Sequence record: HG792103.1
DNA: 61,343 nucleotides
Strand: one strand, 5' to 3'
Source: Escherichia phage P8983
In this document: positions 48,001 through 51,000 of the stretch, one piece after another
Layout: each line of letters begins with the position of its first letter
How positions within the stretch are numbered: position 1 is the first letter of the stretch
Program-made: the position numbers

Positions 48001-51000
48001 CATTTAAAATGTCTAAAAAGATGTATTATTAAAAAGTTTAGCGTGTTATCTGAATACAGGATATCTTAAATGAAGAGTATAGCAACACTGGTTGTGTGTG
48101 CAATCTCCGGGATTGCCTGTGTAAATTTATCTGCACATGCAGCAGAAGGAGAGCATACAATTTCTCTGGGGTATGCGCACTTTCAGTTTCCGGGACTGAA
48201 GGATTTTGTAAAGGATGCGACTGCTCATAACAGGGAGACTTTCAGTCATTTCGTCAACAGAAACTACTTTTCTTCATTGGGCGAATATACAGATGGTCGG
48301 GTCAGTGGATATGAAGGCAAGGATAAAAATCCACAGGGCATTAATATCAGGTATCGCTACGAGATAACGGATGATTTTGGCGTTATCACCTCTTTTACAT
48401 GGACGCGTTCTCTCACTAACTCACAGACATTTATTGATGTGCAGTCAGCCGATCATACCAGGAAGATTAAGAATCCGGCAGCTTCTGCCAGAACGGATAT
48501 CAGGGCGAATTACTGGAGTCTGTTAGCGGGGCCTTCATGGCGGGTTAATCAGTACATGAGTTTATATGCGATGGCAGGGATGGGCGTTGCTAAAGTTAGC
48601 GCTGACCTGAAAATTAAGGACAATATTAACAGTAGTGGCGGATTTTCTGAAAGCAACAGCACGAAAAAAACCTCCCTTGCGTGGGCTGCAGGTGCACAGT
48701 TTAACCTGAATGAGAGTGTTACACTGGATGTGGCTTACGAAGGTTCCGGCTCTGGCGACTGGCGCACGAGTGGCGTTACTGCTGGCATTGGCCTGAAATT
48801 CTGACCTGTATCCGGTAACCGTTTACTACCCGCTGTGATGGCGGGTTTTTTATTGCCCGTACAGGGCAAAAACCGTAAATTATGCGTGGATGCCTTTCGG
48901 CTGATGGCTGGAGGGTGAACCTGAAGGCCTGATGTGGAAAGGCCCCGAGTCAACTTAACGTTAACCCGAGGCCCTAACACTTCGTACCTTAAGCAAGTAG
49001 AAGGTTAGCGCCTCTCTGTAAAAGGAGTCAAGCGCTATGTCGCAAAAATCGCTTATCACCGTCACAATTTGCATGACGGTTATCTTCACCATCTGGATGT
49101 TGCACGGTTCACTGTGTGAGTTCCGGCTGAATTTGTGGGGAGCGGAGTTTGCGGCGTTCTTACAGTGTAAGCAGTAGGAAAACCGCGACGGGGACGAGAG
49201 TCCCCGTCAACTGGTTGCTGAGGTTCAGCCGATATGGCACCCGTTTCAGGTGAGAGAATGAACGATAAAATTCTCTGGTATATGCAGCGTGTTGTGAGAA
49301 ATTCCCGCAACCCTGAATTTATGAATGAAGTTAAAGACGCCTGCCTTAAAAAGCAGGCGTTTTGTTTTGAGGCACCTGATGGCTTTTTGGTGCTGCGTTC
49401 TGTGCTCAGTGCTGATGGTATCCCTTATGTTCTGGTGTTGCTGGGCGTGTGTACGGGGAGTAACAGCGTTGAGCGTTACCTGCCGGAGGTGAAGACATTA
49501 ACCCATCTGGCTGGCGGACGCTGGGCTGAGTTCCATACGGCAAGGCGGGGATTTATCCGGCTGGGAAAACGACTGGGCTTTGAGCGAATGCCGGATGATG
49601 AGGATGGCTTCATGGTGTTCAGGATAGCGGTCTGACTGCTACAGTTTTCATCATTGTGTTTAAACCAACATTGTAATTCACATTCTGACCCTGCTCCGGC
49701 AGGGTTTTTTGTTATCCAGGGGGCCATTATGGGTGGAAGTAAAGGCGGTGGTGATACCAAAGTAAAACCAACAGCAGCGCAAATAGCACAGGAAGAAGTG
49801 GCCTGGAAAGGGTGGCAGGATTACAAAAATATCCTCCGCCCGGCTGAAGATAACTTCATGGAAAAGGTCGATGACCTTAACAGTGAGCAGCAGTACGACA
49901 ATATCGCTGGCACAACAAATCTTGGTTATCAGAAACAGTTTGGTGAAGCGCGAAGGGAGCTGGCGGGTAATCTTGCTCAGTCCGGTGTTGACCCGTCCAG
50001 TGGTCGCTTTAACGCGGTAATGAATGCGAACCAGAGTGATCAGGTAACCGGGCAGATTGACACAACCACACGGGGGCAGGTATCGCAGGCAGATAAGTAT
50101 GTTGCCGGGCTACAGGATGTTGCCGCTCTCGGTTCTGGTCAGAAGGCGGATGCGTTACAGAGTTTTAACTCTCTGGCAGACAGCAGTCTGGCAAAAGCTA
50201 AATCGGATGCACAGGCGGCGTTTACGAAACAGCAGGGGCGAGCCTCTCTTGTTGGCGCTGGTCTGGGTGCGGCAGGTGCATATGCGATGCATAAGGCTGG
50301 CGGTAGCGGAGGAAGTGGCGGTGCTAAAACACCTGGCACCGGCGCTAATGCCATTCAGCATCAGGCTCAGAACTGGAGACTGTGATTATGGAGTACGGTA
50401 AATACGAAACACTTGCAAGATACGGTTATACCGGAGCAGCCCGCCCTCAGGGGGACTGGCAGACATCCGCAGCGCTGACCCGCCAGCAATACGACGACTG
50501 GCGCACCAGATATTTACCCCGTGTAGCAAGGCTGGCTGACCTTGGGGAGAACAACAGTCTGATGAATGCACAGCTTGCACGGGTGGGAGGCCTTGCCACT
50601 TCCAGTCTCCGTACAGCGCAGATGGCGCAGGATAACCAGATGGCGAGATACGGGGTAAACCGCCCGGATAATCCCGACAGTAATACGCTGGGGTTACGTA
50701 ATGCCCTGGCAATTGCTGGCGCGAAAAATGGTATCCGTGAAGCCGAACAGGATCGCCAGATGAATATTCTGACGGGGGCTTCTGCACCGGCAAGACAGAA
50801 ACTGAGTGTTGGCGGCCAACTGGTGGCAGCGTAAGGGGGCAATATGGGATACGGTTTACTGGATATTGCAAATCAGTCGCGGCGTGAGGCATTACAGGGA
50901 ATAAGTGACGCAGACAGACGACGTGAAGAAATTGAGGCTGCGAACAAACAGATGGCGGCGCAACAGAAAGCGCAGAACAAGCAGAATATCGGTACGGGCA

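What the first reader, a model, noticed from the sequence alone, without database searches (positions are those of the whole stretch)
49037..49177. Unannotated Hok/Gef-family type I toxin gene downstream of lom
A 46-aa ORF missing from the ORF track has a strong RBS and encodes a TM helix followed by SLCEFR and EFAAF at the spacing seen in Hok/Gef toxins. It lies between the lom terminator and the next operon. A cognate Sok-like antisense RNA would be expected in 48860-49036. Such a module could stabilise the prophage or act in abortive infection.
Basis: partly seen in the sequence, partly recalled or inferred. Interest (0 to 1): 0.55.

Follow-up and report, generated by a model that had tools for sequence, protein, structure and literature searches.

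The report
Second hok/sok toxin module in Stx phage
The 46-codon gene after lom is a real Hok-family membrane toxin gene with its own antisense-RNA antidote, but public databases already annotate it and a 2025-26 preprint lists the identical peptide among homologues it found toxic, so it is ordinary apart from lacking the usual helper reading frame (mok).

Summary
ORF 49037-49177 (+) encodes a 46-aa peptide that passes Pfam HOK_GEF (33.2 bits, cut-off 22). It sits in a self-contained module of about 390 bp (48853-49246) between the lom terminator and the next genes. The leader carries a Sok-like antisense gene (about 48994 to 48934, minus strand) homologous to K-12 sokB/sokC and 933W sokW. The mRNA has the hok family's 5'-3' end pairing (tac/fbi) and two alternative leader folds, all kept across 40 divergent relatives.

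It is not new. The window is an O104:H4-type Stx2a phage. RefSeq annotates this exact CDS as 'Hok/Gef family protein' (WP_000078907.1). The identical peptide is catalogued as Hok cluster 72, peptide 1589, and was tested in a set where 42 of 45 homologues were toxic and it is not among the three non-toxic ones.

It is a different locus from the studied hokW-sokW, which survives in this window only as a dead remnant (60888-61004).

One real departure from the plasmid R1 model: there is no mok reading frame. All three frames are closed upstream of hok. I infer that a conserved hairpin masking the hok ribosome-binding site and start codon is switched directly by RNA refolding and by Sok.

The parts
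48828..48852 (+). lom terminator (stem-loop plus T-run); left neighbour of the module
   Evidence: Terminator scan. The lom CDS is 48070-48804.
48853..48881 (+). Predicted weak hok mRNA promoter: -35 TTGCCC (48853-58), 17-nt spacer, -10 TAAATT (48876-81)
   Evidence: Read from the sequence. TTGCCn, 17 nt, then TAnAnT recurs at the same spacing in copies from unrelated flanks. The consensus scan did not call it. Inferred, not shown.
48888..49246 (+). Predicted full-length hok mRNA (about 355 nt); +1 about 48888
   Evidence: Position 1 of the Rfam sok/hok-leader model RF01794 aligns to 48888. Homology among copies in different mobile elements runs from here to GGCACCC at 49242. The ends are inferred.
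48888..48903 (+). tac element (5' end of the mRNA). It pairs with fbi in the full-length form and, through 48892-48898, with ucb in the processed form
48936..48976 (+). ucb (GGAAAGGC, 48936-43) plus the hairpin that pairs it with the vestigial mok-SD GAGGC (OFF fold). This is also the sense copy of the Sok terminator hairpin
   Evidence: OFF structure: 87.6% of cells paired, 8 pairs changed on both sides, 0 of 500 shuffles reach it.
48934..48994 (-). Predicted Sok-like antisense RNA (about 60 nt): an 5' tail of about 14-19 nt, a 16-bp GC-rich hairpin and a UUUCC tail
   Evidence: Aligns with annotated K-12 sokC and sokB and 933W sokW. Fold -31.3 kcal/mol, z = -5.6. Expression not tested.
49002..49031 (-). 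Predicted sok promoter: -35 TTGACT (reverse complement of 49026-49031), 18-nt spacer, -10 TAACCT (reverse complement of 49002-49007). It overlaps the hok SD region
   Evidence: The same TAACCT hexamer sits at -12 to -7 of the annotated sokW start in 933W. It is nearly invariant in 40 relatives. The generic promoter scan did not call it.
48968..49014 (+). Long Sok-target hairpin (ON fold): GAGGC (48968-72) pairs with dcb GCCUC (49010-14); the loop CUUAAGCAA carries a YUNR motif
   Evidence: It appears in the MFE of the leader alone. The GAGGC:GCCUC helix is 93.5% paired and tac:ucb 97% paired across 40 sequences.
49007..49036 (+). Hairpin that sequesters the hok SD (49022-27) and abuts the ATG: AGCGC (49007-11) with GCGCU (49032-36), and CUCU (49014-17) with GGAG (49024-27)
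   Evidence: Present in the full-length and truncated MFE folds. The outer helix is paired in 40 of 40 sequences with only GC-to-GU changes.
49037..49177 (+). hok-family toxin CDS, 46 aa
   Evidence: Toxicity of the identical peptide: bioRxiv 10.1101/2025.08.07.668861.
49186..49209 (+). Conserved hairpin after the stop codon; likely the 3' end of the processed, active mRNA
   Evidence: RNAalifold: four pairs changed on both sides in 7-15 sequences each, plus one in a single sequence. Its role is inferred from R1 (PMC9841398).
49226..49242 (+). fbi element (CAGCCGATATGGCACCC), complementary to the mRNA 5' end
   Evidence: 91.4% of cells paired in register against 34-53% when slid. Present in the MFE fold. 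Predicted duplex -20.2 kcal/mol.

Best explanation
This is a complete, probably functional hok/sok-type type I toxin-antitoxin module carried as a moron just after lom in an O104:H4-type Stx2a phage.

Proposed mechanism:
1. A weak promoter makes a hok mRNA of about 355 nt (about 48888-49246). Its 3' end (fbi) pairs with its 5' end (tac) and locks it in an inert fold.
2. In that fold the ucb box pairs with GAGGC. The downstream box (dcb, GCGCCUCUC) is left free to mask hok's own Shine-Dalgarno and start codon.
3. 3' trimming back to the hairpin after the stop codon would remove fbi.
4. tac can then pair with ucb, and GAGGC with dcb. This forms the long Sok-target hairpin and uncovers the hok ribosome-binding site.
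5. A constitutive, unstable antisense RNA of about 60 nt (Sok-like, about 48994 to 48934) pairs with that target region. It keeps the toxin off by RNase III cleavage and/or by returning dcb to the SD.
6. When Sok is lost, the 46-aa peptide inserts into the inner membrane and kills or lyses the cell.

Unlike plasmid R1 hok/sok, no mok frame couples translation, so control would act directly on hok.

Shown here: the ORF, family membership, homology of the antisense gene, conservation of both leader folds and of end pairing, and absence of mok.
Shown by others: toxicity, read from the preprint's text and tables (the identical peptide is in the tested set and not among the three non-toxic ones).
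Inferred: transcript ends, processing, Sok action and the direct switch.
For: Toxin:
- Pfam HOK_GEF above its cut-off.
- Exact CDS annotated as Hok/Gef family protein.
- Always 46 aa, dN/dS about 0.24.
- Identical peptide tested as 72_1589 and not among the 3 of 45 non-toxic homologues.

Antitoxin:
- The antisense strand aligns with annotated sokC, sokB and sokW over the promoter and terminator hairpin.
- Same tail-plus-hairpin architecture, z = -5.6.
- The -10 TAACCT is identical to that in front of sokW.
- Rfam sok leader model matches 48888-49050, E = 6.8e-4.

RNA switch:
- tac:fbi 91% paired in register.
- OFF fold 87.6% paired with 8 pairs changed on both sides, 0 of 500 shuffles.
- In the ON fold, tac:ucb is 97% and GAGGC:GCCUC 93.5% paired.
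- The SD-masking helix is paired in 40 of 40 sequences.
- The ON fold is the MFE of the isolated leader; the OFF fold is the MFE of the full-length RNA.

Autonomy:
- The same module occurs in 1750 of 5426 complete E. coli genomes.
- It sits after lom in lambdoid phages, after ogr in P2-like prophages, before com in a Mu-like prophage, and in an island.

No mok:
-.
Against: - No expression data for either RNA were found.
- The generic sigma-70 scan calls neither promoter.
- The Rfam hit is below gathering (28.2 against 59 bits).
- NCBIfam HokA and Hok models are far below cut-off.
- The predicted Sok tail has only three U residues.
- The MFE of the 3'-truncated whole mRNA keeps the SD masked, and forcing a dcb pairing raised the energy by about 7 kcal/mol. 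That run was mis-registered by one base, so it is only a rough guide. Thermodynamic modelling alone therefore does not demonstrate the ON switch.
- The leader is so conserved that true two-sided covariation is sparse in the ON fold. Conservation there may reflect the sok promoter rather than RNA pairing.
- Chromosomal hok loci of K-12 were reported as inactive in post-segregational killing (cited).
Confidence: 0.7

Rival explanations
1. The toxin gene and mRNA folds are real, but there is no working Sok. The antisense promoter is too weak or dead, and the toxin is held off by mRNA structure alone, or is made only when late transcription reads through. It would then act as an accessory lysis factor rather than as a toxin-antitoxin pair.
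For: No consensus promoter was called on either strand. The -10 TAACCT matches only 3 of 6 consensus positions, and the terminator tail is short. In Sp5 the related HokW is produced on induction and aids lysis and release.
Against: The -35, -10 and hairpin align with annotated sok genes, and the same hexamer precedes sokW, whose promoter mutation unmasked toxicity. The -10 region and the CAAG of the -35 are nearly invariant in 40 relatives, while the target stem between them varies freely.
Confidence: 0.12
2. A decaying, functionless relic, like several K-12 chromosomal hok loci. The ORF and RNA motifs persist only because the copy is recent.
For: The window carries a unique G-to-A change at +3 of the mRNA (48890). 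It weakens the predicted tac:fbi duplex from -26.5 to -20.2 kcal/mol. The sister locus hokW has decayed in this same phage. The classical mok is absent.
Against: 79 of 80 distinct variants, down to about 66% DNA identity, keep an intact 46-aa ORF under purifying selection. Both alternative folds and the end pairing are kept. The identical peptide is in the tested set and not among the three reported non-toxic. The lack of mok is a property of the subfamily, not a lesion of this copy.
Confidence: 0.08
3. A classical three-gene hok/mok/sok locus in which a short or non-canonical leader ORF plays the part of mok. One candidate is the GTG ORF 48934-49008, which ends at the invariant UAG next to the 5' arm of the SD-masking hairpin.
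For: In R1, mok only needs to be translated as far as the hok SD. The window has a 24-codon GTG ORF that ends 14 nt before the SD. Some relatives have an ATG or GTG ORF ending at the same UAG.
Against: That ORF has no SD. It is absent, or reduced to 3 codons, in 55 of the 80 variants, and its start shifts between frames. No ORF overlaps hok in 48 of 80 variants.
Confidence: 0.1

Closest known systems
hok/sok (parB) of plasmid R1, the type I toxin-antitoxin paradigm
   Same: - Hok-family peptide.
- cis-antisense Sok of about 60 nt directed at the leader, with its promoter overlapping the hok SD region.
- tac/fbi end pairing, ucb/dcb boxes and a GAGGC...GCCUC stem around the Sok-target hairpin.
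- A hairpin after the stop codon.

   Different: - No mok reading frame: all three frames are closed between the Sok target and hok.
- dcb is predicted to mask hok's own SD and AUG rather than act through mok.
- The peptide is 46 aa rather than 52 and only 28% identical.
- It is phage-borne rather than plasmid-borne.
hokW-mokW-sokW of phage 933W / Sp5 (Takada et al. 2021, PMC8621323)
   Same: Same phage family. The sok terminator hairpin and the -10 hexamer TAACCT are homologous. It is a type I module carried as a moron.
   Different: A separate locus about 13 kb away on the other strand. HokW is 51 aa, HokC/Gef-like, and has an annotated mokW. HokW has been tested experimentally; this locus has not. 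In this window hokW is a truncated pseudogene while the lom-adjacent locus is intact.
Hok cluster 72 (peptide 72_1589) of Escalera-Maurer et al., bioRxiv 10.1101/2025.08.07.668861
   Same: Identical 46-aa peptide. It is catalogued, placed in a high-abundance cluster, cloned, and included in the toxicity assays.
   Different: That study dealt with coding sequences only and explicitly left Mok, Sok and mRNA structure unanalysed.
HokA of E. coli K-12 (closest named chromosomal homologue)
   Same: Best NCBIfam hit. Both cysteines are hard-coded, and the W..SLCE...AAFL.C pattern is shared.
   Different: 43% identity. The score of 38 bits is far below the HokA equivalog cut-off of 89, so it is not a HokA orthologue. 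K-12 hokA has an annotated, IS150-interrupted mokA in frame with hokA.

Membership tests
Hok/Gef toxin family (Pfam PF01848) | Profile match above the curated gathering score | tested here: met
   33.2 bits against 22, E = 4e-8, profile positions 6-42 of 42.
Hok/Gef toxin family (Pfam PF01848) | Peptide of about 50 aa with an N-terminal transmembrane helix and the conserved C, T, LCE and E residues | tested here: met
   46 aa. C12, T14, L26-C27-E28 and E37 align with the conserved columns of Hok R1 and HokA-C and with the positions listed.
Hok/Gef toxin family (Pfam PF01848) | Toxic when overexpressed | not testable with these tools
   From the literature only. The identical peptide 72_1589 was cloned under an arabinose promoter. 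42 of 45 homologues were toxic, and the 3 non-toxic ones are other sequences.
HokA equivalog (NCBIfam NF007290) | Score at or above the equivalog cut-off | tested here: not met
   38.4 bits against 89. It is a family member, not a HokA orthologue.
hok/sok type I TA system (R1 paradigm) | cis-encoded antisense RNA gene in the hok leader, with its own promoter and terminator hairpin | tested here: met
   Met by homology and structure only. Transcription was not testable.
hok/sok type I TA system (R1 paradigm) | 5'-3' end pairing of the mRNA (tac/fbi) | tested here: met
   14 pairs, 91.4% of cells paired against 34-53% when slid. Present in the MFE fold.
hok/sok type I TA system (R1 paradigm) | Mutually exclusive leader folds (ucb with the SD-like box, versus tac:ucb plus the SD-like box with dcb) | tested here: met
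   Both folds are conserved. Two-sided covariation is strong for the OFF fold and weak for the ON fold.
hok/sok type I TA system (R1 paradigm) | mok reading frame overlapping hok and coupling its translation | tested here: not met
   No overlapping ORF in the window or in 48 of 80 variants. No conserved leader ORF. Stops in all three frames between 48975 and 49036.
hok/sok type I TA system (R1 paradigm) | Rfam sok (RF01794) covariance-model match at gathering score | tested here: inconclusive
   28.2 bits against 59, E = 6.8e-4, full-length model match at 48888-49050.
hok/sok type I TA system (R1 paradigm) | Sok neutralises Hok; killing follows loss of Sok | not testable with these tools
   No data for this locus. 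It has been shown for the separate hokW-sokW locus.

The most novel reading that the evidence does not exclude
This widespread prophage-borne Hok subfamily (cluster 72) is a naturally mok-less hok/sok. Sok would control hok translation directly through an RNA relay: GAGGC, dcb and the hok SD compete for pairing, in place of translational coupling.

It would also be the better-retained of the two hok loci in Stx phages. I found it in 197 phage records, against 63 for a short hokW leader probe; the two searches are not strictly comparable. It was still present in the published Sp5 hokW-sokW deletion strains, where it could have masked phenotypes.
Probability: 0.45. Interest if true: 0.45.

Novelty: already known. 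Interest (0 to 1): 0.22.

Why it matters
As stated, the finding adds nothing new. The gene is annotated in RefSeq, catalogued, and was included in a published toxicity assay.

Three things may be useful to specialists:
- Stx phages such as 933W and Sp5 carry two unrelated hok loci, and only hokW has been studied. The published deletion phenotypes (a twofold drop in phage release and a 40-minute delay in growth arrest) were measured with this second toxin still present.
- In the 2011 O104:H4 outbreak phage, this is the only intact hok locus.
- The subfamily appears to work without mok. That offers a simpler natural system for testing how Sok and mRNA refolding gate translation.

Tried and rejected
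- Equating the locus with hokW-sokW: rejected. The primer sequences and peptide from the paper map elsewhere, to a remnant at 60888-61004.
- Searching for a mok frame: overlapping ORFs, leader ORFs ending at the invariant UAG and stops in each frame. Nothing conserved turned up.
- Species-representative genome scan with the peptide alignment: only 5 loci, three of them likely contaminant contigs. The IMG/VR pattern scan supplied the diversity instead.
- RNAalifold on the whole module proposed a different 3' partner (columns 364-372) for the 5' end. I preferred the GGCACCC partner because it extends to the very 5' end and is 91% paired in register. The two may alternate.
- A constraint fold meant to force GAGGC:GCCUC was mis-registered by one base, so I did not use it. 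The unconstrained fold of the leader alone gives that helix anyway.
- Looking for an intact hokA leader for comparison: the copy I fetched also had IS150 upstream, so I dropped it.
- Literature search for transcript evidence in the EHEC Hfq-CRAC study, and for the protein accession: nothing found.

Full report
**Identity of the window**

The stretch 48805-49260 is 100% identical to Escherichia phage P13374, phi191 and the Stx2a prophage of O104:H4 outbreak strains. It is 99.8% identical to 933W and VT2-Sakai (Sp5). The window is therefore an O104:H4-type Stx2a-converting phage.

**The observation**

- ORF 49037-49177 (+) starts at ATG, ends at TAG and encodes 46 aa.
- AAGGAG lies 9 nt upstream of the ATG.
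- The peptide passes Pfam HOK_GEF: 33.2 bits against a cut-off of 22, E = 4e-8.
- It scores best against, but far below the cut-off of, the NCBIfam HokA model.
- It aligns with Hok R1 and HokA, HokB and HokC so that C12, T14, LCE 26-28 and E37 fall in the family's conserved columns.
- The lom terminator is at 48828-48846 plus a T-run.
- The description is correct, and the match is not a chance one.

**Already annotated and catalogued**

- RefSeq/PGAP annotates exactly this CDS as 'Hok/Gef family protein' WP_000078907.1.
- The P13374 records call it 'prophage host toxic membrane protein' or 'MokW-like host killing'.
- The original 933W record leaves the gap between lom and L0129 unannotated.
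- Escalera-Maurer et al. (bioRxiv 10.1101/2025.08.07.668861) list the identical peptide as cluster 72, peptide 1589, in a high-abundance cluster. They cloned it as pAZ3::72_1589.
- They report that 42 of 45 tested homologues were toxic. The three non-toxic ones are 19_179, 60_1482 and 69_1540.
- I infer toxicity for 72_1589 from that text and those tables. I could not see the figure for this clone.

**Not hokW-sokW**

Takada et al. (PMC8621323) showed that hokW-sokW of Sp5 is a type I TA pair that speeds growth arrest and doubles phage release after mitomycin C.

- HokW is 51 aa. It maps to 933W 58460-58734, where hokW, mokW and sokW are all annotated.
- In this window, that locus survives only as a remnant at 60888-61004 (-).
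- The leader and sok region of the remnant are replaced. One base is lost from the TM-helix coding part, and 76 nt of the 3' half of the CDS are deleted.
- 933W and Sp5 therefore carry two hok loci. The O104:H4 phage keeps only the lom-adjacent one.

**A self-contained module**

- Almost the full 346-nt query recurs in 1750 of 5426 complete E. coli genomes, at 77-100% identity, always under a 'Hok/Gef family protein' CDS.
- The flanks differ between copies: after lom in lambdoid or Stx prophages, after ogr at the end of P2-like prophages, before com in a Mu-like prophage, and in an island beside the urease genes.
- An IMG/VR pattern scan gave 80 distinct variants.
- 79 of the 80 keep a 46-aa ORF, and median dN/dS is 0.24.
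- Homology begins at a TTGCCn, 17 nt, TAnAnT promoter-like element (48853-48881) and ends at GGCACCC (49242).

**The antisense gene**

The minus strand of the leader reads TTGACT, 18 nt, TAACCT. This is followed by a tail, a 16-bp GC-rich hairpin (GGGCCUCGGGUUAAC...GUUGACUCGGGGCC) and UUUCC.

- It aligns with the annotated sokC and sokB of K-12 and sokW of 933W across the promoter and hairpin.
- TAACCT is the same hexamer that sits at -12 to -7 of the annotated sokW start.
- The 63-nt RNA folds like SokB, SokC and SokW: -31.3 kcal/mol, z = -5.6.
- The Rfam sok model is in fact a model of the hok leader. It matches 48888-49050 over its full length at E = 6.8e-4, below gathering.
- I place the Sok-like RNA at about 48994 to 48934.

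**The mRNA switch**

- The 5' end (48888-48903) is complementary to 49226-49242.
- On the 40-sequence alignment A4, 91.4% of cells pair in register, against 34-53% when the partner is slid. The changes are mostly one-sided, GC to GU or UA to UG.
- The full-length MFE fold contains this end pairing and a hairpin that buries the SD and abuts the AUG.
- That hairpin's outer helix is paired in 40 of 40 sequences.
- The OFF leader fold has 8 pairs changed on both sides, and none of 500 shuffles reach its scores.
- The alternative ON fold is tac:ucb plus a long hairpin closed by GAGGC:GCCUC. It is the MFE of the isolated leader.
- The two flanking ON helices are 97% and 93.5% paired. The variable inner stem aligns poorly.
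- The hairpin after the stop codon covaries clearly.
- This is the R1 architecture as summarised in PMC9841398.

**No mok**

- No ORF that starts upstream overlaps hok in the window or in 48 of 80 variants. The overlapping ORFs in the other variants start at scattered positions.
- No leader ORF ending at the invariant UAG is conserved.
- In the window, all three frames have stops between 48975 and 49036.
- At the position of the mok AUG in hokB and hokC, this leader has no start codon.

In R1, dcb pairs with the mok SD. Here dcb overlaps the sequence that masks hok's own SD. I therefore infer a direct RNA relay, as follows.

- Removing fbi allows tac:ucb to form.
- That frees GAGGC to take dcb away from the hok SD.
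- Sok covers GAGGC, so its binding would return dcb to the SD, and RNase III may also cleave the duplex.

This step is inference. The MFE of the whole truncated mRNA still masks the SD. The catalogue preprint explicitly did not analyse Mok. I found no paper describing this departure, but the older subscription literature was not searchable.

**A lineage-specific change**

- The only difference from 933W across 48805-49260 is A instead of G at 48890, which is +3 of the predicted mRNA.
- It is unique among the 80 variants.
- It weakens the predicted tac:fbi duplex from -26.5 to -20.2 kcal/mol.
- Its consequence is unknown.

**Verdict**

- The element is an already annotated and partly characterised member of a well-known family, so interest is low.
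- What remains of interest is the apparent mok-less control, and the fact that this second toxin locus has been overlooked in functional work on Stx phages.

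Noticed in passing
window 60888-61004 (-), context 60820-61120: A dead remnant of the hokW locus studied in 933W/Sp5. The sok and leader region is replaced, a 1-nt deletion shifts the frame, and a 76-nt internal deletion removes the C-terminal half. The fbi-like tail is retained.
   Followed up: yes
window 48890: This is the only difference from 933W over 456 nt: A instead of G at +3 of the predicted hok mRNA. It is unique among 80 module variants. It breaks a G-C pair in the tac:fbi stem, with a predicted duplex energy of -20.2 against -26.5 kcal/mol.
   Followed up: partly
window 49234-49635 (+): The PGAP start codon of the downstream hypothetical gene lies inside the fbi element of the hok mRNA. 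An alternative ATG at 49258, preceded by GGTGAGAG, looks more plausible. hok transcription may read into this gene, since no T-run terminator follows fbi.
   Followed up: no
L036:4302-5400 and L114:5529-6361 (IMG/VR contigs): Two tandem, diverged copies of the same hok/sok module sit a few hundred bases apart on single viral contigs.
   Followed up: no
L012, L013, L015 (genome-contig hits): The module, in one case identical to the Stx-phage copy, appears on contigs labelled Xanthomonas pisi, a Planococcaceae MAG and Vagococcus sp. These are most likely enterobacterial contamination in those assemblies.
   Followed up: no
window 25653-25912, 23996-24244, 14306-14493, 5091-5180, 13387-13470: Rfam matches at gathering score elsewhere in the phage: STnc100 and the anti-sRNA AsxR next to each other, three tRNAs, C4 antisense RNA and isrK, and two sRNA-Xcc1 copies.
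   Followed up: no
window 48934-49008 (+): A 24-codon GTG ORF with no SD ends at the invariant UAG next to the 5' arm of the SD-masking hairpin. It is not conserved in relatives, but I cannot exclude it as a local mok substitute.
   Followed up: partly
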